Shown: in pieces, positions 16,101 through 49,697 of the stretch
Numbering within the stretch: the first letter of the stretch is position 1
How the letters are laid out: the number at the start of each line of letters is the position of its first letter
Assembly (NCBI GenBank): GCA_013265495.1
Contig: MU058198.1
Location: forward strand, 7,827,779 to 7,890,177
Length of the DNA: 62,399 bases
Direction of reading: 5' to 3'
DNA from: Vicugna vicugna
Lineage: Eukaryota
Notes under the pieces: generated by a model
What the model was told of the DNA's origin: nothing
What the model saw: the letters and a program-made list of their open reading frames with translations, nothing else
Database searches by the model: none
Position numbers and translations under genes: made by a program

Positions 16101-16826
16101 CGAGGTCTGACTGGGGAACCCCTAGAAGTCCAGAATCTTTCTCCCCTGATGCACCCCATCCCCCTCCCTGCCACAGACCGAGACCAAGGTGGAGCCGTAC
16201 GAAGTACACAATCCTGTACCGCTTATCGTGGGCAGCTCGGTGGGCGGGCTGGTGCTCCTGGCCCTCATCACTGCCGCCCTGTACAAGGTATCCCCTTGGG
16301 CTGCTTCCTGCCCACCCCCCTCCCCTCGCTGCTTCTCACCCAGCAGCTCCTTCCTGGGTTCGACTCCCAGCAGTGCTGCCAGCTGGGTGACCTTGGGCAA
16401 GTCCCAGAGCCTCAGTTTCTTCAGCTGTCAAACGAGACCAGAAATACCCATTTTGTGAAGATAATTGGGTTGGTATGTCTAGAGCACTTAGAACAGTCCC
16501 TGGTACAGAGTAACCACTATACAAGTAGTTCTTCTTCTTAATATTGTATTTTATATTTCTTTGCTCCTTTTCTTCCCTTTCTTCCCCAGTACTGATGCCA
16601 TCTCCCTCCCTGCCCTACTCCCCCAGGTCTCTTCAAAGCTCTGCCATGTAGTTCTTTGTGTCTCTCGGTCCCTCCGTCTCCATTCCTGGTCTGCACTGCC
16701 ACTACCCGCTCTCCTGGCCTCCGTGCCCTCACTCCTCTGCCTCTGCCTCCACAGCTCGGCTTTTTCAAACGGCAGTACAAGGACATGATGAGTGAAGGTG
16801 GTCCCCAGGCGGCTGCGCCCCAGTGA
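1108..16826 (+). CDS. ITGAM: Integrin alpha-M (CD11b/Mac-1 alpha), exons 10-30; the 5' part including the I-domain lies upstream of the window
   Basis: GT-AG exons in continuous frame: 1108-1181, 3096-3225, 3497-3639, 6291-6431, 6524-6733, 9223-9353, 9448-9611, 11444-11598, 11689-11820, 11992-12065, 12255-12396, 12492-12614, 13185-13264, 14152-14235, 14538-14613, 15123-15230, 15410-15493, 15656-15769, 15855-15956, 16177-16287, 16755-16826. They encode FG-GAP repeats with Ca-binding loops ([27 protein letters not shown]), the TM segment [22 protein letters not shown] and the tail [24 protein letters not shown], which is typical of alpha-M. No stops or frameshifts seen. Confidence 0.96.
1338..3070 (-). 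mobile_element. Old LINE-1 (ORF2 3' part plus 3'UTR) filling ITGAM intron 10
   Basis: Poly-T start, typical antisense L1 ORF2 text (ctcattgtggttttgatttgcatt), and an imperfect TSD aat(c/t)ctgtt at both ends. Confidence 0.85.
5100..6140 (+). mobile_element. Degraded LINE-1 ORF2 fragment
   Basis: ORF fragments [24 protein letters not shown] and [13 protein letters not shown] are L1 ORF2-like. Confidence 0.85.
7878..7915. other. Assembly gap (38 N) in a CA/C-rich low-complexity tract
   Basis: Run of N bases. Confidence 0.99.
8115..8265 (-). mobile_element. tRNA-derived SINE (Vic-1-like, camelid): one full monomer plus a truncated second monomer
   Basis: The reverse complement reads ggggagggtatagctcagtagtagag...gaggtcctgggttcaatcccc (A and B boxes) with an A-rich tail; 18-bp TSD caactaccatagtatata at 8097-8114 and 8266-8283. 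Confidence 0.85.
10400..11200 (+). mobile_element. Old LINE-1 ORF1-region remnant with a nested younger L1 3' end (~10615-10810)
   Basis: A-rich L1 ORF1-like text; the nested piece reads ...aatcactttgctgtatacttgaaactaacac...aaaaaaag. Confidence 0.6.
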
Positions 16827-27324: not shown

Positions 27325-29772
27325 ATGCCCAAGACCGGGATCTTCCTCTTCCTGCTGATGGGTGAGCTGAGGGCCCCCATGCAGGGGATGAGGGGCTGAG
27401 GTCCAGGGAGGGAGGGGTCTGGAATGCATGATTTGGACTCACACATTAGGGTAGGGATCTACAGTTAAACAGGTTTGGGGTCTGGATGTATAGGTTTGGG
27501 ATCTGGAGTTTGTGGAGGGAGAGGATATGGAGGAACAAATTTTGGGGGCATTCAAGAGTTGCTGGAGGAGAGGCCAGTTGCCTGGACAATCCAGAGTTTC
27601 CTCAGGTAGGCAGAACAAGTCGATCTTGTACGCTGTCCACAGCATCCTTTTGGCCCCAGTTTTCTGGGTTCTCCCTCATAGGAGCCCAGGGGTAGGGCTG
27701 GGGAAGGAACGTCTTTAAAGCCAGGGCATTGCTCTGTGGAAATGGAGAACTGAAATGTGCCAGCAGGCCGGAGGGGAGAAGACCCATCTCTGGCCCATGT
27801 GAAGGAGAGAAAAGCAGGGCCAAGAGGCCTGAGTCTGGGGGTCCAGAAGACCAGGAGATGCTGGGGCCTTGCTCCTGGAAAGGAGAGCCGGGAGCTAGGG
27901 GCCTGAGAGGTGGAGCAGGAGGAAGACCCTTCTACAAGGCTTGTCTTCTCATCCTCCTCCAAGGCTTGTCTTCTCACCCTCCTCCCTAGCCTTGCCTTCC
28001 TCTCTCTGCTTCAACTTGGAAACGGACAAGCCGACCACCTTCAGCATGGACAGCGCTGGGTTTGGACACAGCGTGGTCCAGTACGCCAACTGGTGAGGAC
28101 AATGTGGGGTCTGCTTTTCGCTCTCAACACCTCTCCTGTACGGGGTCTGTCCACGCCATGGCCATCCCTGCAAAGTCCTGAAGAGTTGGACTGAAAGAAG
28201 GGCCATCTTGCCATCTTGATAACTGCTTTATTTATTTCTCGAGCACTTAGTAAGTGCCAGGCATCCTTTCTGTAGGCACTGATTTTGTCCCCGTAACAAC
28301 CTCAGGATGGAGGAATCCTCCATTCAGCAAATGTTCATTGAGCATCTATTATTATATGTCTCAGGAGCTGGCCATGCACCAGAGAATAAAACAGACAAAA
28401 ATCTCTCCTGGGAGCAACTTAAATGGTTGTTAGCTTCCATCTTACAGATGAGGAAACTGAAGCTCTGAGAGGAGAGCAAACTTGTCAGGTGGCAGCCCAG
28501 CTCCAGCGTCCACACTCTTAGCTGCCGTGTTCTTTGTCTTTTCCCCCAGGGTGGTGGTTGGGGCCCCCCAGGAGATAAAGGCTGCCAACCAAACAGGTGG
28601 CATCTACCAATGTGACTACAGCACAGGGACGTGTAACGCCATCCACCTGCAGGGTGAGTCTCTGCCCCTTGAGGGGACCAGGATCCAGGCTCCCAGGCTC
28701 TGGGGAACTTCAGGGAGCACAGGAGGCCCACCTCCCAACTTTAGCTCTATTTGCAGACCCTGACCTTCAGACAGGCTTCCTCACTCCCTCAAAGTCCCCT
28801 CGCCCACCGCACCCTCTCACTCCACAGCTCCATCAAGACCTGAAAGCCACTGCCACCTGTCAGACCTCCTTATTTATTTCCCAGAGTTGCCATGACCCCT
28901 GCCCAGATCTTACACAGCCTCCTCTGGCCTGAGGGTGACCATGCACATATCTGCCCTTCAGTGCCCCCAGAGGCTGTGAACATGTCCCTGGGCTTGTCCA
29001 TGGCGGCCACCACCAACCCCACTCAGCTGCTGGTGAGTCACCCTGGGTCACAGGGGCATCCTAAGGGAAGGAGGGGGGACCTGGGGCTGCTGGTGCTGGA
29101 GGTCTCATGGCAGGTGGAGGTGTTGGGATGGGAGGGTGGGACAGAACCCCTCCTACTTGTCCCCTCTGTCCCCAGGCCTGTGGCCCCACCGTGCACCGTG
29201 CATGCAGGGAGAACATGCACCTCACGGGGTTCTGCTTCTTGCTGGCCTCCCCGTCCTGGCATGCCCAGAGGATCCCCGCTGCCCTGCAGGGTGAGTGTTT
29301 GGGGCCACTTTGTCCTTTGAGGCACCTACAGACATCTGATGGGGCTGCAGTGGGGCAGAGACACTCTTACCAAAGTGGATATAAAAGAGGGATCCAGAAA
29401 AAAAAAATCTACTGGATGGTGTAGTGATTCCAAACATGGGCTGGGAGTGGGTCTCTGCCTGCCTTGACACCTGCCCTATCACTGTCCCACAGCAGGACCT
29501 TTCCTGTGACCTTTTCCTCTCTGAGCCTCGGCTTCTTTGTCTGTCAGCTGCGGGTAGTAACACACCCAGTGCTGAGAGCGACATGCGATGATCCACAGTC
29601 AGGGGTTAGCACAGGACCTGGTACTACGTGGTGAGGTCTCAGTTTTTCAGTTGAGCCAGCTGCTCTAGCTAGCTGCTCTAATTTTTAGAGAGAAGGGCAG
29701 GCACCCTGCCTATAACCAGTTGGCTTGTGCAGCAGGCTGGGAAGGGGGAATGAGATGCAGATGGTCTGAGCA

Positions 29773-30160
29773 GTGTGCACGTGTGTGTGTGTATATGAGT
29801 GTGTGATGTATGTATGTGTGTGTCTTGTATGTATGAATGTGTGTGTGTATATGTGTGTTGTATGTATGAGTGTATGCATGCATGTGTGTATGTAGGAGTA
29901 TGCATGTTTGTGTGTATAAGTGTGGTATGAGTGTGTGATGCATGTATGTGTGTATATATGTGTATGTGTGTTGTAGGTATGAGTGTGTACGTGTCTGGTG
30001 TATGTGTGTATGAGTATGTGATGTGTGCATATGAGTATATGCGTATGTGTGTATATTGCATGTGTGTATATGTGTCTGTGCGTGTGTGTTGTGTGTGTGT
30101 GTGTTGTACGTGTGTGTGTTGTGCGTGTACAAGTGCGTACATATGCGTGCTGTGTGCGCA
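29773..30160 (+). repeat. ~390 bp degenerate (TG/TA)n low-complexity repeat in ITGAX intron 5
   Basis: Alternating purine-pyrimidine tract; it is the source of the His/Thr-rich and Cys/Val-rich ORFs. Confidence 0.95.
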
Positions 30161-33100
30161 GGTGCAGGTCGAAGCGCAGGGCCCAGCTTCCTTGGTGCTG
30201 ACAGGGATGGGGCACGAGGAGGTGGAGCACTGAGCTTTTCAGACCCGGCTCAGGGCAGACCGAGACCCCTCCCTGGTTTCACATTCACATTCAGGCCCCT
30301 GGGGATACTGCTGTCCGGGGCCCTGAATGGGGTGCCCCTTCGTGCTGGAGCAGCACCCTCTAGGCTTTAGATTCACCCACCGGCCTCTGGGCTCCCATCC
30401 GAACAGCCAGGACACCTCGCTCTGTGGTGAGAAGTCTGTGGCAGGAAGGGGAAGCTGGGAGTTAGACAGGAATCTGTGAGCCGGGAGGGCTTCCGCTTCT
30501 GAGGACAGATTCTGCCCCCACCCAGGAGGAGAGAGGGGCCCGAATGAAGCCGAGAACTGAATAGGACCAGTGTGTGGGTGTTGCCAGGCATGACATTAAA
30601 AATATTTAACAAAAGTACAATTTGATGTTGACAAATGAGGACAGACCCTGGCCAGGGGCTGGAAGAGAGTCCTTTTATTGCTGGATGGTGGGGATGTCGA
30701 GGGAGAAGGTGGGGTGGGGTCGGGGGAGAGGCACAGACAGCCGAGGTGGAAGGACCAGGCGCAGCTTCTCACTGTCTGCATGGGAGGAGTTTTCACTTTT
30801 TTACCAACTGGGTGTGAGCAGCTGAATCACAGATGTGGTCTCTTGAGACTTAAGAAGACCAAAGGGCCCTGTTCTAGGAAGCCCCTGGGAGGGTGAGTTC
30901 TCCTGGGCAGGAGGCTGAGGGCTGGGCTTTGGGGGTGTCCTGCAGAGGACTGGTGCCACCTCCTTCCCTAGAGTGCCCAAAGCAGGAGCAGGACATCGCC
31001 TTCCTGATTGACGGCTCAGGTAGCATCTCCTTCAGAGATTTTGCCAAAATGCTGAACTTCGTGAGGGCTGTGATGAGCCACTTCCAGAGACCGAGCTCCC
31101 AGGTGTGCCCTCGGGGTAGGGAAAGCGAGTGTGCAGGCACCCCCGCCCCAGCCCCTGGGGAGGCTTGTGGGAGGGACCCCGGGGTTGGAGCGCCCTGGCC
31201 TGGCCCCCAGCCCCGCGTGGCTCTCCCAGTTCTCCCTGATGCAGTTCTCCGACAAGTTTGTGGTGCACTTCACTTTCAAAGACTTTGCAATCAGCTCAGA
31301 CCCACTAAGCCTGCTGAATTCTGTAACACAGCTGCAAGGGTACACTTACACGGCCACAGCCATCGGAATGGTCACGTGAGTCCTGACTCCTCCCAGGTGC
31401 TCCCCCCAGACATCTGGGTCCTCCTTTTGGCCCCAACTGTCTCCATGACGAAGGGAGAGGTGAGCACTGGAATTCAGCCTGTGGTCTCCTCACCAAGCCA
31501 GGAGCCTCTGGGTGGGATGGGAGCACCCCAGAGGAAGGGGCATCTCCTGGTTCTCACAAAGGGGTCAAGAGCAGCTCTGTTCACCGGCCGCTGAACCCTC
31601 ATCTTCCCTGACAGAGACCAATTGTTTAGTGCCTCAAAAGGGTCCCGAAAAGATGCCTCCAAGATCCTGATCGTCATCACCGATGGGCAAAAAACAGGGG
31701 ACTACCAGGATTACAAGGATGTCATTCCCAGGGCTGAGGCCGCTGGCATCATCCGCTATGCAATTGGGGTAGGATGTGGGATTGCCCTCCCACTGCTTCC
31801 TCTCCTCACTTCCTCTTAAGGCAACTTCCCTCTTGAGGACAGAAATCCCAGCTCTCTCAGCTTCTACTATCTTCAGGATGAAAACTCTGTTCCAGCCTGG
31901 GGGACCATAATCCTTTTCCCTAAACTGCTTGATGCTGTCTGAGCCCTGTTTTTCTTGCCTGGACACCGGGTGTAATAGCATTAACCTTGGAGGGTTTTTG
32001 GAGGCTCCCAGCATCCAGCACGTGGCAGGCATGTTGTAGTTATGGTTATTTCCACTGAGCTGGTCTTTGTTGGGGACAGGTGGGATCGGCTTTTCAAACT
32101 GAACATTCCTTGCAAGAATTACAGGACATTGCATCAAAGCCGTCCAGTGAACATATATTTAAAGTGGATAATTTTGATGCTTTGAGAGACATTCAAAACA
32201 AACTGAAAGAGAAGATCTTTGCCATTGAGGGTAAGTCAGAGATGGAACTACTCCAGAAATCCTCACCCATAAATGCTTTTCTTTCTAGAACCTGGACCCC
32301 CACATCATGGGCACCAACCCCTCCCTTCGGGTGTTAGTTTCCAACATTAGCTCCTCTTAAAGCTGCGATCGTTCTTGAACCTGGAAAAACTTGTCTTTCC
32401 TCATGGAACCTGGGTGTCATGCCTTTCCCCAGGTACACAGACCGCAAGCAGTAGCTCCTTCGAATTGGAGATGGCCCAGGAGGGCTTCAGTGCTGTGTTC
32501 GCGCCTGTGAGTGGGGCCCCTTTTAGGTCACCGATGTAGGATGAGGAAGAGAAGGGAGAAGGGAAGGCAAGAGTGGATGTCAGATGAGTGGGTGGAGCCA
32601 GCAGCAGGCGGTGCTTTGGAAGAGGCTGTCTTCTCCTTCCCACCTGCTCAGCCCTGGAATCTCTCCTCCCAGGATGGACCAGTTCTGGGGGCTGTGGGGA
32701 GCTTCAGCTGGTCTGGAGGGGCCTTCCTGTACCCCCCCAAAATGAGCCCCACCTTCATCAACATGTCCCAGGAGAACGTGGACATGAAGAACTCTTACCT
32801 GGGTGAGACGGGGCTGCGGCTGGAGGGTCAGGCAGGGCTGCCGGGGAGGGCGGGGCCTGGGGGCGGGAGGGGAAGCCTTTGTGCTGAGGCCTGGTCCCCT
32901 CAGGTTACTCCACTGAGCTGGCCCTTTGGAAGGGGCTATAGAACCTGGTCCTGGGGGCCCCCCACCATCAGCACACCGGGAAGGTTGTCCTCTTCACCCA
33001 GGTGTCCAGGCAGTGGAGGCCGAAGGCTGAAGTCACAGGGACCCAGGTTGGGCGTGGAGGAGGGTCTCCAGGGGCAGAGAGGAGGGAGATGAAGTGGGTG

Positions 33101-34289
33101 TGGGGTGGGGAGAGAGGTGCTGGTGGCTGAGGAGAGCGGGACCTGGCCCAGAAGGGGTCCTCTGGCAAGGGCAGGCAGGATGACTCCAGGCTCTGCCCTG
33201 CAGATCGGCTCCTACTTCGGGGCCTCCCTCTGCTCTGTGGACGTGGACAGAGATGGCAGCTCCGACCTGGTCCTCATCGGGGCCCCGCATTACTATGAGC
33301 AGACCCGGGGGGGCCAGGTGTCCGTGTGCCCCTTGCCCAAGGGGGTGAGTGGCTGACGGGACCTGGGTTGGGCGGAGTCTGGGAGTGGGTGGAGGGCTTG
33401 CCTGGGCTGGGTCCTGACTCTTGTTTTCTTCTGCAGAGGGCTAAGTGGCAGTGTGGGGTCATTCTCCACGGGGAGCAAGGCCACCCCTGGAGCCGCTTTG
33501 GGGCAGCCCTGACAGTGATGGGGGATGTGAATGGGGACAAGCTGATGGACGTGGCCATCGGGGCCCCAGGAGAGCAGGAGAACCGGGGTGCCATCTACCT
33601 GTTTCATGGAACCTCAGGACTGAGTATCAACCCCTCATACAGCCAGGTGAGGCCAGATCACAGATCCTGTTGCTACAAGAACCTCCTCCTGGTTTCTCCT
33701 TGTCTTCTCTACTGCTGCCTGGAAAATTCTCTTTTCTCTCACGTTACCTTTTTTGTACAACACTGGGCATCTTGTTGGCAGCAAGGAAAATCTGTGGAAT
33801 TTGAGAAATAGAAACATTGATTGATATGTTCTCTGCTTTGTCTAAGGACTTGATGCTTGAATGATTTCTCCATCCCAGCCTTTTAATCCCCAGCAGCTTT
33901 ACAGGGTACACAGGCCAGGCATTAGCAAACCCATTTTAGAGATGAAATCTGGGCCACGGAGAAGATAAGTGACTTGACTAGTCTCAGGTTTATAGTGGAT
34001 CAAGAATGGTGATGGGGGGGGTTCCAATTTCTAGACTCTAACCCGATGCTCCATCTCTTAAAGGCTCCCTGTTTTCAGTCGGTTAGGTCTGGTGGCCCAG
34101 TCTGCCTGTCCACTCACCCCTTCACTCCCTGCAATGTGTGATGCGATGACTTCTTTCCCTCCTGCCATCAGTCATCCTGCCGGATGCCTATAGGCAGGAG
34201 CCCTTCACTCAGTGGCACAGGGTTCCCTGAAAAAGAAGGGTTTCATCCCTGGCAAAAGTTAAGGAAGCCCCAGTTAAAAAAGAAGCAAA

Positions 34290-35010
34290 GGCTCTAAGTA
34301 GACTTTTCTCCAAAGATGATATACAAAGGACCAAAATGCACATGCAAAGATGCTCAATGTCAGTAATCATCAGTTATTAGCAAATCAAAACCACAATGAG
34401 ATGCCACCTCACACCCCCTAGGATGGCTGGAATCAGAGAGGCAGGTAATAACAATTGCTGATGAGGATGTGGAGAATCCCTCATCCACTGCTGGTGGGAA
34501 TGTAAAATGGTGCAGCTATATTGGTTTGGCAGTTCTTCAAAAGTTTAACTTACTGTATGACTCAGCAGTTTCACCCAAGAGAATTGAAAACATGTCTATA
34601 CAAAAAATTATACATGAATGTTCATAGTCCCATTATTCATAATAACCATAAGGTAGAAACAACTCAAATGCCCATCAGTTGATGAGCAGATAAGTAAAAT
34701 GTGGTCTACCCATACAATGGAATATTATTCTGCCATGAAAAGAATGAAAAGCTGACATATGCTTCAATGTGAATAAACCTTGAAAACATTATGTTAAAGA
34801 CAGAAAGAAGATTAGTGGTTGTTGGGTTGGTGGTAGAGCAAAATGAAGGACATGGAGGTGACTGCAGAGGGGTCTGGAGTTTCTTTTTGAGGTGATGAAA
34901 ATATTCTAAAATTGATTTGGTGATGGTTGCACAACCCTGTGAATGTCCTAGAAACAGATAAGGGGTAAATTGTGCAGCCTGTGAATTATATCTCAAAAAG
35001 TTATTAGGAA
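34290..35010 (+). mobile_element. Old LINE-1 3' end
   Basis: caaatcaaaaccacaatgagatgccacctcacacc...ggaatattattctgcc... Confidence 0.8.
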
Positions 35011-38000
35011 AAAGGTCAAAGAAGATTCCTATGGTTCTGTCACTTCCCAACTTTGTGATCTTGGTCATGACTCACCTCTCTGTAAAATGGTGACAGTAAT
35101 GGAATCAATCTAACTGGGCAGCTGCCGTGAAGATTAAATGAATTAGCACATATAGAGGACCTACAGGGCGCCTGTATACACCTGTGCCTGGCACATAATA
35201 GGTGTTATATTTTTATAATCAATTATTGTTAATGCAGTTTATCGACTGAAGAGGTTCTAAAGAACTTAGAACTTTAATAAGAGGGTGGAAGACTTTGTTC
35301 GGAATGACAAGAGCTTTCCATTGTTATAAAACTGCATTCTGTCCACACCAACTTCTTAATATCCTCGTGCTGCAGCAGCTTAGAGCCTTATCTATGTAGC
35401 CATTCAATTGCAAATATCATTTGGGTTACACCTGCAAGGCCTGACCCCAAGAAGGGGGTCTCTCCAGATTCATTGGCCCACTATGACTTTCTTTCCTGCC
35501 CAACATAGCCCATCACCTACTTAGCTGGGAAGGGCTTGTCTTGTCCCCTTCCGGCCCACACACCCCTGAGGATGTGGTGGTGAGATCAGTTCTCCTGCGC
35601 ACAAGGCTGCGGACTGCGTACTGTCTCTACGGCCTCTTCCTTGCTAGAGTCCCTTGGTAACTGGTAAATTTCTCTTTCATTGTATTATTACTACTCTGAA
35701 TGTCTGCCAGTCCCAGTGGTGCCCAGAGATTTAAAGGGCACGTTCTTCAAGGGACTGGTCATTTCAGGAGTCCTGGAAATAAAAGGGAAGGGACCCATAG
35801 GGGAGATGAGGTCCAGGGGTGTAGAAACTGTGTATGGAGTGCAGTCACTCCCCACCCCGACTTGGTCTCTCCTTGGCTTCTGAAGAGACAGGGTAGCTAC
35901 AGGAAGCAAAGAGGGGCCTTGGGCATGGGGTCAGAGGATCTGATTGCAGGGTCTGAAGTCAGCCTCTTAAAGGCCGTGTGGCTTGGCACCGCCTGCGATG
36001 TGGGAGGTGGGGGTCTGAGGTCCCCTCCATCCCTGACGCTCATTGGAGTGAGTAACTGACCAGTGACCTGGGCCAGGTGCCGTTCTAAGAACCCCATGCA
36101 TTCATTCACTTAATGCTCTGAGGTGTTATCAACCCAGGTGAGGAACGAGGACACTGAAGCACAGAAAGACTGACTCCTGACCTAGGGTCTCGTGGCTCAG
36201 TGAAGGAGCCAGAATCAGAACCTGAGACTAACCAGCTGAGTGAGTGAATGAAACTCAGGTCACCGGGCCAATCTTTCAATCTCCACTTCTTCATTTATGT
36301 CCTAGAAATCTTTCCTCGTCTGTTGTCACCGTTTCCCCACCCCCTTTCAGGAGCTTCTTGGAGACAGCATTTTACTTCTCACCCCTGTGTTCTGTCTCCC
36401 ACATCCTGACCTCCCTGTTCCTCTTGCTTCATCCAACTTGTTTCCCTCATGTCCTCACCTGACTTTCTTCTCCCTCTCTGGCCAGAGGATCGCAGGTACC
36501 CAGCTCTCCCCCAGGCTTCAGTATTTTGGGCAATCACTGAGCGGGGGTCAGGACCTCACCCAGGATGGACTGGCGGACTTGGCTGTGGGGGCCCGGGGAC
36601 ACGCACTACTGCTCAGGTGAGAACAGCCTTCCTCAGAAACTGCCCAGGTAGTCCTAGGTCTGCCCAGGACACCTGCCTCCCTGCCCCTCGTCCCAGGTTG
36701 TCCTCTGGGTACCAAGAGCCCGTCCTCAGCTCAGTGTTCTGCCCACAGGACCAGACCAGTGCTCAGGGTGCGGGCAAGCATCCGCATCTTTCCGGCAGAG
36801 ATCGCCAGGTCTGTGTTTGAGTGCCAGCAGCACGTGGCCTCTGTCCAGGCTCTGGGTAGTGCCACTGTCTGCCTTCATATTCATGGAAGTCCCAGGAACA
36901 GGCTGGGTGAGTCCTTTCCCCTCCAACCCAGGATATCCTGATGGGGCATCCCCTAGCCCAGGATTCCTATCTCCTGCCTGGCCCCTTGCCCACCTAGGGA
37001 GTTCTTCACTCTCTCAGCCTTTCCCATCCCTTGCTTACCCCTATAGGTGACCTCCAAAGCTCTGTGACCTTTGACCTGACCCTCGATCCTGGCCGCCTGA
37101 GTCCTCGTGCCATCTTCGAGGAGACAAATACCTGGAATCTGACTCGTGTTCGAGTCCTGGGGCTGACAGAGCACTGCGAGGCTGTGAGGCTGCTCCTTCC
37201 GGTGAGGGGGCCTTGGAGTCCTGGGGATGAAGGCGATTCTGGGGCTGGCAGTGGGCTGGGCTGGGCAGAGGGGAACATGTGTGTTCTGGTCTTCGCTGTG
37301 GCTCAGCCCTAACAAGGCAGGTGACGTGCAAGAGATGCTTAACACATGTTAGCGGAGTAAGTGAGTAGATGGATGGATGAGGTTGGCTGCAACTGCCAGA
37401 GGCAGCAGGGCTGGATTTCAGGAAAAAGAGCTCAGCTGCTTCAGTGGGCTGGAGTCCTTTTATTCAGCTAATCCTCTGAGACAGGCTCTGTCCAATGTGC
37501 CAGGAGCCAGCCGTGGACAAAACAATTATGCCCAGAAAGCTCTGGAGGAAGACGAAAAGCGACCAATGTCTTAGATAATAGATGTTGGTAGTGATGAGAG
37601 CTGTGAAGGGAGATAAAGCCAGGGAGAGAACAGAGAGGGTGTCAGGGGCCTCCGGGAGCAGGTGAAGTTTGAGAAGACCCTGAGTAGAGTGAGTGAGACT
37701 GTAGAGGGGCTGGGGGAAGGGAGCTGAAGATGAAGGAAGACCACGGCAGAGGTTGCCTGTGCAGAATCATAGCAATGAGCATTTATCGGCGGCAGGTAGT
37801 TACCACTGTCACCCCATTTTATGGATAAGAAGACGGGGCACAGCTAGTGGCTGTGAGGCTGCATTTCTTAGCCACCTGCTCTCCCTGATGTCCATCCCCC
37901 AGGCTTGTGTGGAAGACTCAGTGACCCCCATCATCTTGCGTCTCAACTTCTCCCTGGTGGGCAAGCATGTCTCTTCCTTTGGAAACCTCCAGCCCATGCT

Positions 38001-38962
38001 GGCTGTGGATGCCCAGAGATACTTCACGGCTTCTGTGAGTCCTGGTGTTGGGCTCTTCCAGAGGGAATAGAGGGTGCGTGGGCTCCAGGTCTTGGGGGAA
38101 ACCCTGCTTTGCCTTCCCTCTCAGCTCCCCTTCGAGAAGAACTGTGGCACCAATCACATCTGCGAGGATGACCTCAGCATTTCCTTTGGGGTCTCAGGGT
38201 GAGCGTCCACCCCCTCAGACCTGTCCTGGTCTCCCAGCCCCTCTCCTGGAACTTGGAACTCCTGCCCCTGGCTCTCCCCAATATCTCTACCCAGTGCTCA
38301 GGACCCAGACCTTTGTCCCCATCTCTCCCCAACTCCCCCACTCTATTTTTCACCCCCATATACCATTTCTAGCCTTAGTCACAGAGTCATCTCCTCCCCT
38401 CTACCACAATGCCTAGCTTGAAGACGCTGGTGGTGGGGAGTAACCTGGAGCTGAGCTTGGAAGTGACAGTGCGGAATGATGGCGAGGACTCCTATGGAAC
38501 CAGAGTCACCTTCTTCTACCCGCCAGGGCTGTCTTACCGACGTGTGGCAGTGGACCAGGTATTGTCCCCTCTGGGGAAAGACGAGGCTGATGACTGGGAA
38601 CCAGAAGAGACTCTCGTGCTGGGCTCAAAACTTGGGCAGGGCCTGTCATTGCTTAGAAGCCTCTTGAAAACCAAGAGGGCTGCGCTGGTTGCAGTTGGAT
38701 GAATGTGACTGTGTTGGCTGGGGCTTGCCTTGGCTCATTCTATGTTCAACTCTGGGCATTGCATTTGAAGGATATTGACTGTCAGAATGGGTTCCCAGGA
38801 GGCCACTAGTATGAAGAGAATGGGGACCCTTGCGTTACACTTCTTTATATTTCACATCATACCAATATTTCTCTTTTTAAAGGAAAATATATCTCAGCCT
38901 TCAGATGTTTACAGCACTGTTCTGTAGAGGAAGGAGTTGATTTACTTGGTTACTCTAGATAA

Positions 38963-39151
38963 GGGCTTGGCAAACTTTTTCTATAAAGGGCTGGATAGTA
39001 AGTATTTCACCTTTGTGGGCCATACAGTTCATCATATCTACTAAACTCTGCAAAAGCAGCCATTGACAATATGTATATGAATAAGCATGGCTGTGTTCCA
39101 ATAAAATTTTATTTATAAAAATTGGTGCTGGGCCATCATACGGCAATCCCT
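38963..39151. mobile_element. hAT-Charlie MITE (MER58-like)
   Basis: ggcaaactttttctataaagggc...ggctgtgttccaataaaattttatttataaaa...ccctg resembles MER58. Confidence 0.7.
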
Positions 39152-42100
39152 GTTCCAGAAGACAGAACTAGGAACACAGGGAGTAAAAGAGAAGCAGATT
39201 TTTAACTAAAATTTTATGAAAAATGTTTAACATTTACAAAAGAAAAGACTAGTTCAACAAACTTACCCCTAAATTATCACCCAGATTCAACAATGATCAG
39301 AATTTTGCCACATTTATTTCATCTGTTTCCCCCCAACCTCCACCACCTTTGCTCAAGTATTTTAAAACACATCCCAGACGTTAGGTTATCACACACCTTT
39401 CTAATTCACTGTTCTGGACAGTGGGGCCATCTTACGTGACCCAGTGACATTATCACATCCAGTGCAATGAATGACTCCTTTATATTCAGACCATTACCAG
39501 ATTTCCTTAATTTTTTCAAAAGATGTCTTTTTTATTTGGTTTATTTGAACCAGCATCTTAACTAGGTCCACACATTATGTTTGGATGCTCTCCCATGTCT
39601 CTCTTAAGCTAGTGTTCCCAATGGGAGCATATTTTGATCAATGCATGAAGAAGGACACCAGGAATGGCAAACTCCAGCTGTGCGAGGGGTGAGCACCCTG
39701 TCACTGGGAGTATTTCTAAATGTGTCAACCGATGCTGTGTGTGGACTTTTGTTGGCTATTTTTAAAAATGAACTTTACGTAACATTTTTGGAGACAATCT
39801 CGGAACACTGAACATGACTTGGATATTAACAGATCTTAACGAGTTATTGAAAGTTTTGTTGGCTATGCTTTGTTGAGTCTTGTGCTTATGATTAAAAATA
39901 CCCTTATCTGTTAGTGGTATACACTGAAGTCTTTCTGGGTGAAGGTATGCGACGTACGGCATGTGCTTTAAATTATTCAGGAAAAAAAAATGGAGGACAG
40001 CTGAATAAAACAAGAGTAGAAAAAAATGGTAATATAATCTGAGTGATGGATACACTACACTACTAAATTAGTCTCTCTACTTTTGAATATATTTGAAATT
40101 TTCATAATGCAAACCTTTTTGAAAGGACAATAATAAATAAAAAATGGAGAAATGCTAATACATCTACAATTTCTACATTAGGAGGAAGTTTGACCAGATA
40201 GTGTCTAAGGATTTTTTAAAAACATAACCTTAAGAGTTTCCAGGAAACCGTCATTACTTTATGGAGTTTCTTTGGAACACTAATAAATGCTTGCCTGCAT
40301 TAATATTTATTTTTTCATCTGTACGTCCCTAGAACCAGCTGCAGTCACGTGCCCTGCGCCTGACCTGTGACAGCGCCCCTGCCGGGAGTCAGGACACCAT
40401 CAGCACCCACTGTAGCATCACCCACCTCATCTTCCGTGAGGGCGCCCAGGTCAGCTTTGCTTCTTCCCACCCCTAACTCCCCTGCACTCACCCTGTCTCA
40501 CTCCCCAGTGACCTCCCCCCTGTTCCTACCTCTTCCTCAGATCACCTTCATGGCCACCTTTGATGTCTCCCCCACGGCCGTGCTGGGAGACCGGCTGCTT
40601 CTGACCGCCAATGTGAGCAGGTGAGCTGGACCAGGCCTAGGGCATCACCCCCTCCCGCCCAGCCTCCTCCCCTGGGGCACTTGCCAACTGGGAGACTCCT
40701 CTTTTTCCAGTGAGAATAACACCCCCAGGACAAGCAAGACCACCTTCCAGCTGGAGCTCCCGGTCAAGTACGCTGTCTACACCGTGATCAGCAGGTGCCA
40801 CACCACGACCTCAAAAGGGTCCTCCCCTGTCACTCTGTGGGGCCCAGGCAATCCTCAGTCTCTGCAGCAGCTGGCCACCTGCCATATTTAAGTTTCACCG
40901 CCACCTTTTCAATTGGGCGATGCTGCTGCTAGCAGCACTCACTGATCAATCCAGTGTTTATCGTGGGCTATTGATGATAACAAGAATTGTCACATTGTCC
41001 CCATTACATCCTACATTTCATAGAGGCTACAGTTCTCAGAAGCCTTTCTTAAAAGCCTCACGATTGTCCAGGATTCCCTAGACGTATGAGACGTGTCCCT
41101 GTCTTCAAGGTTCTTACAGCCTCACTTGGGGAGCAAGGTTACCCTGATCACAGGCAGAGTCTCATCAAGGGCCTCCCTGTGGTTCTGAACCCTGAGGTTG
41201 TGTGAGTTTCCAAGGCGGGGTGGGCGCTAGGGCCTGCTGTCAGGGGAGACCTCCGCTAAACACTGAGGGCTCCGTGACGTTGGGTGTAGACCTTGGGCAG
41301 GACAATTGCTCGTTGCAAGGAACAGATTCTCACCCTGCAGGGCTTTCAGAACCACCCCTCCTCCTTGACCCAGTCTCCATGGGAAGGATGCAGGAAACGA
41401 CCTGCTTGTGGCAGAGGCTGGGAATCAGGCAAAAGCTGGATGGAAGGAAAAGGCCTTAAAACGCTGCCCGGGGAGGGCTAGACCGGCTTTTTGACACTAA
41501 GGAGTCAAGTTAAGGGCTTGAGCAGATACCTTCCTTCAACAAATACCTTCCTAGCATCATATGTTCCAGCCACAGTGCTGTGGTTACTTTCTGTAAATTC
41601 ATTTCACATTCAACAGAGACTTACTGTGCCCTCCCTAACATGTGCCATCAACACCAGACGTAACCCCCTGCCTTTGTGAGATCCGTGTACTCGTGACGTG
41701 AAACGGGCCCAGGTGGCTTGGCCTGGGAACCTTCCCTGCTAGATCTGCCCACACGCCTCTTTGGGTTTCCTCCTCCCGCCCAGAGTCTCCCGCCCTCATT
41801 CACACCCGCACGCGGGGGCTCTCGGCAGCCCCGCAGGAGCAAGCTCGGAGCTCCCTTGCTGGGTCGCCTGAGGGTCTCACACTTGCTTGCAGGGGGCCCA
41901 CAAGCACAACACGCCAAGTCTCGGTGTGTGTGGCCCAACAGCCTGGTTGTACTCTGCAGTTGTGAGTCTGAGGGTGGGGGCACTCAAAGGGACCCCCCAG
42001 GACAAGGCTGGGATGTTTTGGGGGAGCCGCTCACAAAGGAGGGAGGAGACTTCAGAGTAGGAGTCGGGGTCTAGAATTTGGACGGTGCAGGCACAGGACT

Positions 42101-42275
42101 GGTACCCAAGGAGTGGAGCGTGGAGGGGCGGAAGTGAGACCAGCCATGGGGTGAGGGGCCAGGCTGGCCGCTGGGCCTCCAGATGGGCCTAGGAAGGCCT
42201 CTGGAGGTGCGGTTACACTGAGACCCAGAGAAGAGTCTGTATTGGGCCCTCCCTCACCTCGTGGCCCCAAGCCCA

Positions 42276-42866
42276 GAGCAGCCAAGGAAACAAGGCCTGT
42301 GGGAGACGAGACAGAAATGGGTCCAGGAGACCTCTGTCCACAGCATCAGCCTGAGTCTCCCCAAACCTTTGCCGTGTCCCCGTGCCCATCCAGCTTCCTC
42401 CGTGGGCAGCCTCTGCAAGCACTTTGCGCCCAGCTGGAAGCCCAGCCCTGCTCCCTAAACCTCCCGTTACCCCACGTCAGCCACAGACCTCGTTCCAGAG
42501 CAGCCCAAGGGCCACTGACCCGTGTTCTGTTAAGCTCCCAGCCAGAGCCTCCTCAGGGGGCCCTAATGGAACCCCACATCCACCCATTCCCCTCCTCTCC
42601 CCAGCCATGAAGAGTCCACCAAGTACCTCAACTTCTCGGCCTCAGAGGAGAAGGACAGCCGCAGGGCCCAGCACAGATACCAGGCAAGTGAGGGCGACTG
42701 AGGAGCGTGGGCCGGGGCGGGGGGCCCAGGAGCCAGAGACTCGGGAGGGATGTGGGGTTTGGCATGACCTTTGCCCTCACTGCCCTCCATGCAGGTGAAC
42801 AACCTGGGACAGAGGGACCTGCCTGCCAGCATTGATTTCTCAGTGCCCGTGGAGCTGAACCGGGTG
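42276..42866 (+). repeat. Left arm (visible part) of the inverted ITGAX segmental duplication
   Basis: Reverse complement of 61810-62399; about 13 differences including one 1-bp indel over ~590 bp by manual comparison. Confidence 0.95.
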
Positions 42867-45800
42867 AAAGGATTTAATAACTTTATGATCAGAAATTTGT
42901 CCAAGTTGGAAGCTGATATTCAGAGATTGATAGAAAAAAACCAATTCTTCTTAGCCCTTCTCTTCTGAGCTAAAGGTATCCAGAGGGAAAGAAAAAAGAT
43001 TCCAATATAGGTGAATGAGGCTATCTACCCTCTAGCATCCAGGCTACAATTCAACTTTTTGAAACATTAGAAACAACTGTCCTTATCGTATGAATCTTCA
43101 CAAGACTAGAGATGCAGCTCCAGAGGCAATTCAAAATTCACCTATTCCTTTTCACCAGTTCCCCAAACCTTCCTTGTGTATCTTATCAGTCTCATAACTC
43201 AGATTCTTTCCTGTGCTTTGAGTTGAAAATGTCAAAGTACAAACCTCAGAAAGGTAATTTTTAGCAGAAATAAAACAGAAGGAGGAAGGTCATTTGAAAT
43301 TTGGGGATGGGGGCAAGGAAATCCTTAAATCATCTTCTAAGTTCTCTGTTTGCCTCTGTCTGTATGTTCATGTGTGTCTACATATGCTGCAGAGAAGTGT
43401 AGTATTTTCTACCTTTGAATCACATTGCTAAAATTAATTCATAAGAAGAATTCTATTTAATTGTCTTGAAAACAAACAAGTGCTTATAAGAATTAAAATT
43501 TAAGAGAAACTGATCCAAATGCTTTTTCAAGTTCTCATAATCTAGGATTAATCTTTAGTAAATTAAAAGCTACTTTAGGGTTTTGGGTTTAATTAAAATA
43601 AGCATGTCTTTAGAGTTATCAACACTGAATATAATGCAGATATACAACTTTGATTCTACCTGGGTTCATTAGTCAAAGAAGTTCATATTATCTCTGTTAC
43701 AGAATTTGTCAGCAAGAAAAATAACTTGGTGAGATTAAAGTTTTCACAATTAAACATAATTGTTAAAAACAGGTAAACTAAATGGATGTAAGTAAGATGA
43801 AAAATTTCTAGGTGAACTTTTCAAGTAGTTTCCCGAAATCTTTTTTTCAAATCTTAAAGTTTTCTTAGTTGAATTATATGATGGCTAGCCATTGAATATC
43901 TAGATTATTCTCAAATAAGATAAAATAGTGCAACATTAATTACTGAACACTATTTTTGGCTTCACCTTACAGAGAAACTAACACTATTTGGGTCTTTTTA
44001 GTAAACATATTTGGTGCTGAGAAATTTTCTATGAGAAAGCACATGTTTCTAGAAATGATGGAAAATATTTATGTCTGCCAATCCACAGAATGCTATTGTA
44101 AAAGACAGGTCATAATTGCTTACTTCTTAGTTTTCACTGGAAAGTAAAAATTCTAATATATGTAATTAAAACCACTAGAGATAAGAAGGGAAAGGAATCT
44201 TAAGTGTGGTCAGAACTGGCTAAGAATTGGAATGAATTTAACTAAGTTAATGAGTTTTAATATCAAAAATAAGCTGGTGCAAAATTATTATTTGGTTTTC
44301 TCTCTGTGGAAAGACAAAGTTTTTTTGTTTGTTTTTGACTATTGGTCTGCTTTTCATTGTAGAAGGCTTTTCTTTACCTTTTAAAATAATTTGACAAGAA
44401 AACATGGATTCTGTGTTTTGTCAAAATAATTTTCTGTGTTCAGAAAGCTGAATCTTTTCTATTGAAAAAGCTAGTTTTTTTTAAAAAACAGCTATTTAAC
44501 CTTCTGATTTTGCTTTTAACGTTTTGTGTTATCTTTTTATTTCAATAGGTAACTAAGTATTGTTTGAGAGTGATCTATAATTCTTTTTGACCAAGTGTTT
44601 TAAACACTTTTTGATTCTTTGACAAACTTCCCCTAATTATAAATGAAGTCTCTTTTGACCTCAAATTAAACTGAAAAATTGAAAAACTGAAATTTTTCAG
44701 AGGGCTCCTGGAACATTTCAAAAGATTTGTTCTCTCCCCTTTAAAAAAGGGAGATGTTAAACAAATTAGGCTTATCTGAAATGTTAAACCGCATGTGAAG
44801 CGTTGTCAGATAAGTAATACAAAGCCTTCTCTACATTGTATTTATATATGTATATGTTATAAGTGTTTCAGAAATTATGTGAAATTCCTGGAAATCTGAT
44901 AAGTCCTGATCAGTCATAATTCCAGTTATTATCTTAAAATGTTGTGTGTCACAGAAATAACCAAATGTCCTTGTCAATCCCTTCATAATGAACTCTCATC
45001 AGATCTTCAATAACGAACATTTGTAAGTCTCTTGTCATTACAGAGTTATTGTTTTTCCGTGATGATTTTACAAAAGCCTTTTTGCAAAAGTGTTTCATCT
45101 TCAGGAATTCAAGAAAAAGAACTTTGACAAGAACAGTTTTCTGATAACTTTGAGATAATAAAACTAAACTGGGTAAAAATTTCCAGAACTAGTGGAAAAA
45201 TTGGATTCAGGTAGAACAAGAATTAATAACATGGGACTAAATGAACTGAGGAGAATGACTGTAATTTTTATGACTTCTTGTTTTGAAAAATTGCCAGTTC
45301 TCTAATGTTTCACTTTTCTAGACTTGAGGAAATGTTTTCTCTCAAGCTACCTATGGCTTACAGCAATTTGGTGGAACATACTTTTGTAAACAGAGGTGAA
45401 ATAAGTATCTTTTCTCCCCACCTAATCTTTCCAGAATTTTAAAACTCTTGAGTATTGTTTCGTGGCAATATAGTTAGTTATTTTGCATAAGTTCAATAAA
45501 CGTCTGTTCTCCTTGTAACAAAATAGGACACAGTGGGAACCACAGGCTATTACCAAGGCTTTGATTGAAAGATGTCATATTTGAGAGAGAAATGTAGAGA
45601 CTCAGATATGACCAGACAGCTTTAAGGAAGAACCTGAACTTTGGCTTGACTTCCTGTCCTCGAGTGTTTTTCAAGTTCAGTCTGAGATTCCTTATAAAAA
45701 ATTCCAGCAAGGCAGTCTTAAAAGAAACTTACATGGTCAGTCACAATTCTTGCTGCATTTATGTAAGCAATCAGGCCAAGTCTAATACAAACAAGTTAGT

Positions 45801-47583
45801 TTTTCTGTAATTATCCTTGGAAAAAACATGGGGGGAGGGGTAGCTGAGACACCAAAATTATGTTTGCATCTTTGCAGGTATTATATTCGTCTTGTTAATT
45901 GTTTTTGAGGTTTTGCTAAGTACCTGTAAACTGGACTGGATCCTGAATTCTTCTCATTTCCTCAAATACCCAGTTATGATTCTCCAAACTAACATTTCCC
46001 GTTTTCTCCCACCCTTCCGATTTGGAATCGGTAAGAACAAAGATGGCTCTTGAATATTTTTGTAAGGAACTATACCATGTCCCCTTCATGACCCAGAAAA
46101 ATGGCAGCCCAACTTCAAGGACTCCAGCCTTGGGTACACATCTCACAACTAAAGAAGACTGCACTTGACTTCTGGCCCTGGATAGATGCTGGTGACCTCC
46201 AAGTCAAATTAGGTAGGAAGAGAAGGATTTGACATTGAGGTGGACAGCTTTCTCCCAAGTGGCTGGATCGAGACTTAATACTTTAGCAAGACATTCTCCT
46301 TCTCCTTCTCCTTCTTCTCCATCCCTTCTCTTCTCCTTCCCCTTCCTCCTCCTCCTCTTCCTCCTCTTCCTCTTCTTCCTCTTCCTCCTCCTCCTCTCCT
46401 CCTCCTCCCCCTCCTTCTTCTTTTCTCCTTTGCTGTGGCATTGACTTGGGAAAATAACACCATCATCTCTATCTCCCAGGCCATTTTTAAGAGGGGCAGG
46501 TAACATTTCAGACTGCTCTGATCTTTCCATTATGCTACAGACTCCCTGGTGTCTTTCTCTGCCTCTGGTTAACTACCCCAGACTTGCAGAACTTTGAATC
46601 CAGGCTTTATTCAAAGAAAGGGACACAAGGCAAGGGTAATAAAAAATAATATATTAAGTTAAATTAAAAATAAAAAGAATAAAACTACCTGTGCAGTCTA
46701 CAGATCCTTAAATTTTTATTAGCCTCCATGTCTGTCACATTTCCAGTTCTGAGAGACAGATTCAAATGGAAATTATCGGGAGGCACTCATGATTCAAAAT
46801 TAGCTCCCTTTGATAGTCCCCTACTTCCCTGGTTAAGAGAAAATATAAATGAGGAAATTCTCCTTAACTATTGAAAATATTGCAGAATCTGCTGCTCTAA
46901 TAAAATCTGTCCAACAAGAATCCTTACACTCTCTGGCCAAAGTTGTGGGTTTTTTTCTTTTTCCAAAGTTGTTCTTGATGATAGGATAGCCCTTGATTAT
47001 CTTTCAGCTGAAGAAGGAGGTATCTATGCTGTGGCCAAGGCCACGAGTTGCACCTGGATGAACACTTCTGGGGAAGTTGAAATTCAGTTACATGAGGTCA
47101 CTGAGTGATAAGATCACTGAGCAAGTCACTTGGCTTAAAAAAGCAACTCCTTCAGCAGAGTCTTTCTTTGACTTACTTGATTTTGATTGGTTTGGATCTT
47201 GGGGACCATGGTCCAAAGTGCACTGCAGACATGGGGGATTATCCTGCTTTATTGTAATTATAATACTTTCCCGGGTGCATTGTATTCCCTCAAAAGCTTT
47301 AAATGCCTGTTTACAGCTGCTAACCACCAAGCAAATGATCTCCCTAAGCCTGGGACGTCAAAAAAGGAAGAAAAAGAATGACTAACTTAAAGATTGTGAA
47401 CCTGAAGCTGTGACCTGTGACTATCACACGAGGTTAAGCAAAAATGTTATGACCTATAGATACCACACAAAGAATGGATAAAACCCAGAGAACTTCAGAC
47501 CAGTAGCTGAGAGTGGCACTAATGCCTTAAAATTTTTACCACCTCTCTCAGCTAAGCTGAGAGTCTGATCAAAAGGGAAAAAT
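42867..47583 (+). mobile_element. ERV1 (MER4-group-like) internal region lacking its 5' LTR, with a degenerate env TM remnant
   Basis: AT-rich internal sequence. 46900-47290 translates to QQESLHSLAKVV..LDDRIALDYLSAEEGGIYAVAKATSCTWMNTSGEVE..KITEQVTWLKK..FDWFGSWGPW (degenerate immunosuppressive domain and CX6CC). PPT aaaagggaaaaa at 47571-47582. Confidence 0.8.
46293..46430 (+). repeat. CT-rich (TCC/TTC)n low-complexity tract
   Basis: Almost pure polypyrimidine run of ~135 bp. Confidence 0.9.
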
Positions 47584-47947
47584 TGTTAAAAAGGAACAAT
47601 AGAACCCAAATGGAGTCACTTGTGCTAAGCCCCACATCAGCAAAGACTTAATATATAAACTAATTGCAGTTTCAACCTTTCCCAGGAATGTAGTTTTAAC
47701 TGATCAGTCAACTGGTCAGTCTGGAATTTTCTGGACAGCACCGATGAGGTAATCTGCCACATAGGCCCTTTCCATCCCCCAAAGGAAGATGAGGTAATCC
47801 ACTTTCTGACTATAAAAATCTTCCATTTTGTCTGGCTCCTCAGAGTTTCTCTCTACTTGCTAGATGGGATGCTGTCCAATGCATGAATGGTTCAACAAAG
47901 CCAATTAGATCTCTATAATTTACTAAGTTGAATATTTTTTTTTAACA
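47584..47947 (+). mobile_element. 3' LTR of the ERV1 element
   Basis: Follows the PPT; inverted termini TGTTAAAAA...TTTTTAACA; internal TATAAAA. Confidence 0.8.
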
Positions 47948-48072
47948 AAGGACAACAGAGAGTATCTCTAAGACCTCTGGTCACTAAGAGGGTAGTCACT
48001 GTGAAGGGCAAAACCAAGAAACTATTAATACCAGGGGGTGTAGTGTGAAGGAGTTATTTTGTTTTGTAAATC

Positions 48073-48715
48073 TGTTAAAGCAGGCAGATATCTAGATATA
48101 AGCAGAGAAAGGGGGATGCAGGCCAAAGGGCAGGAATTGGGCAAAAAGGAGGGGCATGGGCCAAATGCAGAAAAGCATACATCAAGTAAACAACAGGCGT
48201 CCCTGGACAGAGAAAGAAATGCAAGAACCTCTGGGCTGATAAGTGGTCACACCTTTTGGGGTGATGAGCGGCCTGGAGGCCAACAAAGGAAGGTGGGAAA
48301 AGGCAGGATTCTCTAGTGTTTGAATGGAGCCTTTTGCTCATTATGCCCTCACTTTAATAAAATTAGCGTTGCATATTGGATGTACCCATCGTGCACCAAC
48401 ACCATGACACTTCCAATCTAGACTAAAAAAGGACAAAAATCCCTCCCCCCTTCGAAGGTGGAATTGGGATGAAAATCAGAAAATACTACCCCCAAACTCT
48501 TCCCTCCCCAATGAAAATTCCACCCATTCATTTTTACGCTCCATGTAACCAACTTGCCAGAGAAACTCAGGGCAGCCGCTACCCTGAGCCTGCCTGCTCT
48601 CCCCTCGAGAGTGTACTGTCTATCCCTGAATAAATCCTCGCTTTACTTTCTTAACCTCCGAGTCTCGTCTCTGAATTCTTTCTGCGATGAGACGAGGACC
48701 TGGTCACCGGCAGCA
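48073..48715 (+). mobile_element. Solo ERV1 LTR
   Basis: TGTTAAAG...GGCAGCA with AATAAA near 48629 and a near-perfect 4-bp TSD AATC/GATC. Confidence 0.65.
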
Positions 48716-49176
48716 GATCGGTATCATCAGCTTCCTGAGGAAACTTCACTAAAATGGGTTGTGAGAGTAATTCACCGGGGGACCGGTCTCTGGGTGAATG
48801 CCGCAGAGAGGGCGAGCGCGTTTGGGCTTGACACAGGCACACTGCTCACTCTAAGCAATCACAGATGGCTCCGTGTGACCCAGACACACAGGAGGTTATT
48901 CCTGAGAGATCAGCCAGCCAGGTGGACTGGATAAAAGCCACCGTAAGGTCTGTTTACCCTGAGAAGGGGGACTGTCCATTACCCCCATGAATGCGAAGTG
49001 GAGCACCCCAGATGGAGCAGCTGATATGCCTCAGACTCAGGCCATGTGGTTCTGGCTTTGTGATGACTGAGCTGTTTCCCTGATGACGATGCCCGTTACC
49101 CAGGTCTTGATAAATGCTGGGGTTAAAACGGCCCCTTTCACATGTGCTGGGCTGCACCTCACAGGTCTACAAGGCC

Positions 49177-49596: not shown

Positions 49597-49697
49597 ACAT
49601 GGGCACCGCACGTAACCCTCCTGCTGCAAAACCAAAAAACAGTTCAGGAAGCTTTATCAAATTTCCTGTCTCAGCTTCCCCTCAAAGGTCTTACAGA

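What the first reader, a model, noticed from the sequence alone, without database searches (positions are those of the whole stretch)
32939..32941. Single nonsense codon (codon 418, probably CAG>TAG) in an otherwise clean 24-exon ITGAX reading frame
Seen: exon 12 reads tgg aag ggg cta TAG aac ctg. The aligned ITGAM exon here has Gln ([12 protein letters not shown]). Every other exon keeps frame, splice sites, the MIDAS DGSGS and the Ca-binding loops. Inference: very recent pseudogenisation, a segregating null allele, or a base-call error. The predicted 417-aa product (signal peptide, first propeller blades, complete I-domain) would be a likely NMD target; if it escaped, it would be a tailless I-domain-bearing fragment. 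Skipping exon 12 alone (143 nt) frameshifts; skipping exons 11+12 (273 nt) stays in frame.
Basis: seen in the sequence. Interest (0 to 1): 0.7.

Follow-up and report, generated by a model that had tools for sequence, protein, structure and literature searches.

The report
Likely paralog-borrowed stop in camelid CD11c
The stop codon is really in this South American camelid sequence, but it lies in a CD11c (ITGAX) copy that also breaks off in exon 25 and in a block that ITGAX shares almost residue for residue with its sister gene ITGAD, so it is likely a mark borrowed from a dead copy, probably by an assembly mix-up, rather than a loss of CD11c.

Summary
TAG at 32939-32941 is in frame at codon 418 of a South American camelid ITGAX, where human alpha-X and 10 of 10 camelid models examined have Gln. 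The gene is not otherwise clean. It has 24 of 30 exons, breaks inside exon 25 at 42866, and exons 24-30 lie inverted 19 kb away. Three more private changes (R401K, D402N, R426H; two at near-invariant residues) lie within 26 codons of the stop, while the rest of the frame shows no excess change. That cluster falls in exons 11-14, which ITGAX and ITGAD share at 94-100% in 7 of 8 mammal pairs, and camelid ITGAD looks dead. Other camelid draft gene models fail at the same two spots, whereas four long-contig models are full length. Most likely (about 0.5) the stop comes from a dead paralogous block and the layout is an assembly chimera; a real truncated duplicate (0.2) or a real null haplotype (0.17) remain open. 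No donor carrying the stop was seen and no read evidence was obtained. Earlier scan notes list similar isolated stops and a mosaic gene in this genome; none concerns ITGAX.

The parts
32939..32941 (+). In-frame TAG, codon 418 (Gln in other camelid models and human alpha-X)
27325..42866 (+). ITGAX copy: exons 1-24 whole plus 72 nt of exon 25 (978 codons); 98.6% identical to alpaca ITGAX XP_072799100, 95.4-95.6% to four full-length camel models
32673..33646 (+). Exons 11-14, the block that ITGAX and ITGAD share at near identity within a species
32787..32792 (+). Private changes R401K and D402N in exon 11
32963..32965 (+). Private change R426H in exon 12, at a residue that is R in 113 of 113 ungapped aligned proteins
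42276..42866 (+). Left arm of inverted repeat (end of intron 23, exon 24, intron 24, 5' part of exon 25); gene sequence ends abruptly at 42866
42867..60189 (.). About 17 kb without any integrin exon; repeat-rich; reads as the inverted 3' flank of the minus-strand copy (inference)
60190..62071 (-). ITGAX exons 24-30, open frame with transmembrane helix, GFFKR tail and stop; 227 of 231 residues match alpaca ITGAX
61810..62399 (-). Right arm of inverted repeat, 12 substitutions and one 1-base gap against the left arm; runs off the window end
3096..16823 (+). 3' part of ITGAM upstream on the same strand; 2 differences from alpaca ITGAM in 815 residues compared, no stop in them

Best explanation
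The stop likely comes from a dead paralogous copy of the exon 11-14 block and was probably written into ITGAX when the assembly merged near-identical copies, so the animal likely still has a working CD11c gene. Shown: the stop and three more private changes are confined to 26 codons of exons 11-12; exons 11-14 are near-identical between ITGAX and ITGAD within species; the gene breaks at an inverted repeat whose other arm carries intact exons 24-30. Inferred: (1) camelid ITGAD, or a partial inverted ITGAX duplicate, is a decaying donor that holds these four changes; (2) a collapsed consensus took the donor's bases in two short stretches; (3) the path through the inverted repeat was taken the wrong way round, so exons 1-25a and the inverted exons 25-30 are the two halves of one gene. 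Any RNA that did carry the stop would likely be removed by nonsense-mediated decay.
For: Clustering: 4 of 8-9 private changes within 26 of 978 codons, P 0.004-0.006 by simulation. Outside exons 11-12 the copy has 4 derived changes (plus 1 unpolarised) against 5 in the intact alpaca model, and no frameshift or lost splice site. The excess distance from alpaca relative to ITGAM (14/978 vs 2/815, scaled by camel distance; Fisher P 0.041) is no longer significant without the four changes (P 0.12). Shared block: dromedary ITGAD model matches dromedary ITGAX at 157 of 158 residues over codons 363-520 but 49-62% in other regions; 94-100% in 7 of 8 species pairs against 84-89% between camel and hippo orthologues. 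Dead donor plausible: the only camelid ITGAD among the 120 listed of 184 hits is one 974-aa dromedary model, missing 49 N-terminal residues and five internal stretches of 21-38 residues against hippo ITGAD and with GFFIR for GFFKR. Same spots trouble other camelid models: an older alpaca model lacks part of exons 12-14 and ends in exon 21; a Bactrian model is exons 11-13 alone; 4 of 5 dromedary draft models repeat exon 23 and all 5 end at exon 23 or 24; a wild-camel model has two exon-25-like starts; models on 33-47 Mb contigs are full length in four species. A copy neutral since the arms split would be expected to show about 21 (11-37) amino-acid changes against 9 seen.
Against: No donor carrying the stop was seen: the dromedary ITGAD model and the Bactrian fragment read Q, D and R at these sites, and no protein matched exon 11 with K401/N402 (best 95%; 120 listed of 386 hits). 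ITGAD of this genome is not in the window. There is no N gap between 7915 and the window end, so both trouble spots are written as continuous sequence. The neutral-copy test is not significant at its lower bound (P 0.35) and assumes no conversion between the arms. Protein databases under-report stop-bearing alleles by construction. No read evidence.
Confidence: 0.5

Rival explanations
1. The layout is real: a 3'-truncated dead ITGAX duplicate sits next to ITGAM and a complete working ITGAX lies inverted beyond the window end; the stop is ordinary decay of the dead copy.
For: Truncation in exon 25, arms 2% apart, intact exons 24-30 on the minus strand, no N gap. The minus copy shares Q977 with alpaca ITGAX while the plus copy has R as in camels.
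Against: Damage is confined to 26 codons, not spread; 9 changes against about 21 expected; the broken copy holds the ancestral position and exon 1 just downstream of ITGAM; exons 1-23 of the minus copy are not visible.
Confidence: 0.2
2. A real CD11c-null haplotype: gene conversion from dead ITGAD wrote a short damaged tract into the only ITGAX, and/or an inversion between the inverted arms separated exons 1-25a from exons 25-30.
For: A short tract of changes inside a block under concerted evolution is what conversion leaves; inverted arms 18.9 kb apart are a substrate for inversion (mechanism from established knowledge); CD11c knockout mice are viable enough to study (PMC11913667, passages).
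Against: Needs two independent real lesions on one haplotype; four camelid species have full-length models; the same two spots fail in other draft models.
Confidence: 0.17
3. An isolated base-call or consensus error at 32939, unrelated to paralogs.
For: 10 of 10 camelid models examined read Gln. Unchecked earlier notes report other isolated stops in this genome.
Against: Does not explain three neighbouring changes, each reachable by one G>A step, two at near-invariant residues; the window's ITGAM differs from alpaca at only 2 of 815 residues, so general error is low.
Confidence: 0.05
4. The copy makes a functional secreted fragment (417 aa with the I-domain) that acts as a decoy.
For: Signal peptide, I-domain exons and MIDAS are intact.
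Against: Stop is 105 nt upstream of a junction with many more downstream, so NMD is expected; the propeller would be incomplete; no camelid protein of this form among the listed hits.
Confidence: 0.02

Closest known systems
Alpaca ITGAX / CD11c (XP_072799100, P0125)
   Same: 964 of 978 residues identical to the plus copy, 227 of 231 to the minus copy.
   Different: Full length, Gln at 418, R401, D402, R426, continuous through the transmembrane helix and tail.
Collapsed-paralog and mis-joined-repeat artefacts of draft assemblies (general knowledge, not from a call)
   Same: Lesions sit exactly in a near-identical shared block and at an inverted repeat; other camelid draft models fail there too.
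   Different: Not shown with reads here; no N gap at either spot.
Pseudogene-to-gene conversion null alleles such as CYP21A1P to CYP21A2 or GBAP1 to GBA1 (recalled, not from a call)
   Same: Tandem paralog with a near-identical block and a short tract of damaging changes.
   Different: The donor would be a sister gene (ITGAD) sharing only four exons, and it has not been shown to carry the stop.
Duplicated (unprocessed) pseudogene
   Same: Introns kept, nonsense codon, 3' truncation, near-identical neighbour.
   Different: No gene-wide relaxation seen; an intact full second copy is not shown.

Membership tests
ITGAX (integrin alpha-X, CD11c) | Closer to alpha-X than to alpha-M or alpha-D | tested here: met
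   98.6% to alpaca ITGAX, 61.9% to camel ITGAM; exon 12 best hit alpha-X, E 1.3e-22 against 2e-06 for alpha-M
ITGAX (integrin alpha-X, CD11c) | Inserted I-domain with MIDAS DxSxS | tested here: met
   DGSGS in exon 6
ITGAX (integrin alpha-X, CD11c) | Directly downstream of ITGAM on the same strand | tested here: met
   ITGAM ends at 16823, exon 1 at 27325
ITGAX (integrin alpha-X, CD11c) | Continuous frame through transmembrane helix and GFFKR tail | tested here: not met
   Stop at 418 and break at 42866; these exons lie only on the minus strand
Duplicated (unprocessed) pseudogene | Disabling lesions with introns retained | tested here: met
Duplicated (unprocessed) pseudogene | Intact parent copy in the same genome | tested here: inconclusive
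   Only exons 24-30 of the inverted copy are in the window; no whole genome held
Duplicated (unprocessed) pseudogene | Relaxed selection along the whole copy | tested here: inconclusive
   9 changes against 21 (11-37) expected; no excess outside exons 11-12
Pseudogene-derived gene-conversion allele | Near-identical donor block in a neighbouring paralog | tested here: met
   Met in dromedary models and six other mammals; ITGAD of this genome not seen
Pseudogene-derived gene-conversion allele | Donor carries the same lesion | tested here: inconclusive
   Dromedary ITGAD model reads Q, D, R; no South American camelid ITGAD sequence available
Pseudogene-derived gene-conversion allele | Lesion on gene-anchored reads of the animal | not testable with these tools
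   searches returned no data
Collapsed-repeat assembly chimera | Lesion coincides with a near-identical repeat, and other assemblies fail at the same place | tested here: met
Collapsed-repeat assembly chimera | Doubled depth and mixed bases in reads; spanning reads disagree with the consensus | not testable with these tools
   searches returned no data
NMD substrate | Stop more than 50-55 nt upstream of an exon junction | tested here: met
   105 nt; rule from established knowledge; decay itself not tested

The most novel reading that the evidence does not exclude
South American camelids carry a natural CD11c-null haplotype: ITGAX and ITGAD have kept exons 11-14 in step by gene conversion across placental mammals, and once camelid ITGAD died this same process began to write lesions into the live ITGAX, with a flanking inverted repeat able to split the gene as well.
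Probability: 0.15. Interest if true: 0.55.

Novelty: new member of a known kind. Interest (0 to 1): 0.27.

Why it matters
If the best reading holds, the lesson is practical: loss-of-function calls in ITGAX/ITGAD exons 11-14 and exons 21-25 of camelid drafts cannot be trusted without paralog-aware long reads. If the null haplotype is real, it is a natural CD11c knockout in the family used for nanobody production, where ITGAX marks a T-bet+ cluster making up 31.58% of B cells in Bactrian camels (PMC11059136, passages) and where loss would be expected to affect neutrophil maturation as in knockout mice (PMC11913667, passages). The side result, concerted evolution of exons 11-14 between ITGAX and ITGAD in 7 of 8 mammal pairs, was not found in three searches, which cover only the open-licence library.

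Tried and rejected
Read check at 32939: searches returned no data, so base, depth and linkage stay open. Run search: 14 of 24 listed runs, DNA or untyped, of one organism in 6 studies hold 0.86-0.92 of the words of 31900-33900; not diagnostic, because the four changed codons touch only 4.5% of the words, about the spread between runs, and a dead paralog would supply the same words. Exact 24-base pattern next to the stop in metagenome contigs: 0 matches, uninformative for an animal gene. First PDB search was out of frame and found nothing. Idea that the window end is a scaffold end: dropped, nothing shows it; the piece extends at least 6.6 Mb upstream. Pfam scan of two stretches after the break: 0 families in 6 of 6 frames, so the retroelement label is from recall only. 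Cryptic in-frame acceptors inside exon 12: only two, removing 129 or 135 of 143 nt, no rescue. ITGAM as donor: rejected, exons 11-12 are only 52-53% identical. Earlier findings near this place or in relatives: none; word search gave only unrelated microbial notes. Papers: ITGAX+alpaca gave 3, none on the locus (listing); CD11c+llama+alpaca+antibodies 8 (listing); camelid terms 716, the 20 listed without ITGAX; ITGAD+pseudogene+camel 0; ITGAX loss-of-function 1, irrelevant (passages); CD11c/CD11d duplication 4 (listing). No supplements were read.

Full report
Observation. Exon 12 spans 32904-33046 and translates as [22 protein letters not shown]..., with TAG at 32939-32941. A coordinate-based exon map from the ATG at 27325 gives 24 exons with AG acceptors and GT donors (exon 24 has a GC donor, also present in the inverted copy), one stop at codon 418, and an intact DGSGS. 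Human alpha-X has Gln at this position, as does the window's ITGAM. Gln is common but not invariant: 99 of 131 fetched alpha-M/X/D proteins.

Identity. ITGAM lies upstream on the same strand. All 7 camelid ITGAX models compared, plus an older alpaca model, a Bactrian fragment and the dromedary ITGAD model, read Gln: 10 of 10. Annotation pipelines rarely emit a protein for a stop-bearing allele, so this count is biased.

The copy is not otherwise clean: truncation. After 72 nt of exon 25 the gene sequence ends at 42866 and would read 33 foreign codons to a stop. Exons 24-30, with transmembrane helix, GFFKR tail and stop, lie intact on the minus strand at 62071-60190. The stretch 42276-42866 is repeated inverted at 61810-62399 with 12 substitutions and one gap, 18.9 kb apart, and the right arm runs off the window. 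No integrin exon lies between. This layout can arise in three ways (inference): a real truncated duplicate beside a complete inverted gene; a real inversion between inverted arms; or an assembly path taken the wrong way through a partial inverted duplicate. The window cannot separate them.

The copy is not otherwise clean: a cluster. Polarised with camels, the plus copy has 8 derived changes, the alpaca model 5, and one site is unresolved. Four of the plus copy's changes, R401K, D402N, Q418* and R426H, lie within 26 codons; chance for such a cluster anywhere is 0.004-0.006. D402 is D in 112 of 118 aligned proteins and R426 is R in 113 of 118, the rest gaps (118 of 131 proteins, those of 900 residues or more, many of them redundant isoforms). 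Each of the four is reachable by one transition (inference from the codons). Outside exons 11-12 the copy looks like a working allele: 4 derived changes against 5, no frameshift, no lost splice site. The window's ITGAM differs from alpaca at 2 of 815 residues against 29 for camel; ITGAX is further off than that predicts (Fisher P 0.041), but not once the four changes are removed (P 0.12). If the copy had been neutral since the arms diverged, about 21 amino-acid changes would be expected against 9 seen (P 0.003), but the range is 11-37 and the lower end gives P 0.35; this leans against, and does not exclude, an old dead duplicate.

Where the cluster sits. The dromedary ITGAD model matches dromedary ITGAX at 157 of 158 residues over codons 363-520 and at 49-62% in the other regions. 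The same holds in hippo, blue whale, pangolin, squirrel, colugo and armadillo: exons 11-12 and 13-14 are 94-100% identical between the paralogs, against 84-89% between camel and hippo orthologues; the eighth pair, human, used partial isoforms and gave 15/18 and 88%. This is the signature of concerted evolution. ITGAM shares only exons 13-14 (91-94%), not 11-12 (52-53%), so it is not the donor. Camelid ITGAD looks dead: among the 120 listed of 184 hits the only camelid protein is one 974-residue dromedary model that lacks 49 N-terminal residues and five internal stretches against hippo ITGAD and has GFFIR for GFFKR; that search covered only proteins of 535-1705 residues. Against the donor idea, this model and the Bactrian fragment read Q, D and R at the changed sites, and no listed protein carried K401/N402.

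Other camelid models fail at the same two spots. The older alpaca model jumps from exon 12 into exon 14 and ends in exon 21; a Bactrian model is exons 11-13 alone; 4 of 5 dromedary draft models repeat exon 23 and all 5 end at exon 23 or 24; a wild-camel model has two exon-25-like starts. Models on 33-47 Mb contigs are full length in alpaca and three camels. These are gene models, not the underlying DNA, so they are indirect evidence.

What could not be tested. No whole genome was held and no reads were laid. Fourteen of 24 listed runs hold 0.86-0.92 of the words around the stop, but the four changes touch only 4.5% of those words, so this says nothing about the allele.

Mechanism and odds. Most likely (0.5) the four changes belong to a decaying paralogous copy of the shared block and entered the ITGAX consensus by collapse, while the inverted repeat was mis-joined; the animal would then have a normal CD11c. 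A real truncated duplicate with an intact inverted gene (0.2) gives the same biological outcome, so the joint odds that CD11c is unaffected by this stop are about 0.7, or 0.75 with a plain error (0.05). A real null haplotype by conversion from dead ITGAD or by inversion (0.17) is the interesting case. A functional secreted fragment is unlikely (0.02): the stop ends 105 nt before a junction and the propeller would be incomplete.

Comparison and novelty. It works like a paralog-derived lesion, of the assembly kind or the CYP21A2/GBA1 conversion kind (both recalled); membership in either is unproven, since the donor lesion and read support are missing. Searches found no paper on camelid ITGAX structure or on ITGAX/ITGAD conversion; the library lacks most subscription and older papers, where the latter may be described. 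I read passages only of PMC11059136, PMC11913667 and PMC5993790. Earlier scan notes on this genome report an IGSF6 stop absent from four related animals, an APOE stop shared with a retrocopy and a mosaic CD46 copy; I did not check them and use them as leads only. Verdict: real letters, overstated context, probably ordinary; interest 0.27.

Noticed in passing
window 32673-33646 and fetched proteins: ITGAX and ITGAD exons 11-14 are 94-100% identical within species in 7 of 8 mammal pairs, more than between camel and hippo orthologues; ITGAM joins only for exons 13-14. No paper found.
   Followed up: partly
P0004 (dromedary ITGAD model): Only camelid ITGAD protein seen, and degenerate; ITGAD may be lost in Camelidae.
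   Followed up: partly
window 42684-42685 and 61992-61991: Exon 24 has a GC splice donor in both ITGAX copies.
   Followed up: no
window 42276-42866 / 61810-62399: Differences between the arms are uneven: 7 of 12 fall in 42315-42365, while 42589-42861 is identical, hinting at conversion between arms.
   Followed up: partly
window 42867-47950: AT-rich stretch that looks like the internal part and one terminal repeat of an old LTR retroelement, cut at the gene junction; no second copy of the repeat in the window. Label from recall; Pfam found nothing.
   Followed up: partly
window 26566-26655 and 27271-27324: Matches the 48-residue N-terminal extension of the camelid RefSeq ITGAX models, an upstream in-frame start or extra 5' exon.
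   Followed up: no
window 54794-56200: 468-codon open stretch on the minus strand resembling the 3' end of LINE-1 ORF2 (label from recall).
   Followed up: no
window 29770-30160: Long degenerate TG-rich repeat in ITGAX intron 5.
   Followed up: no
window 7878-7915: The only N run (38 bases), in an ITGAM intron.
   Followed up: no
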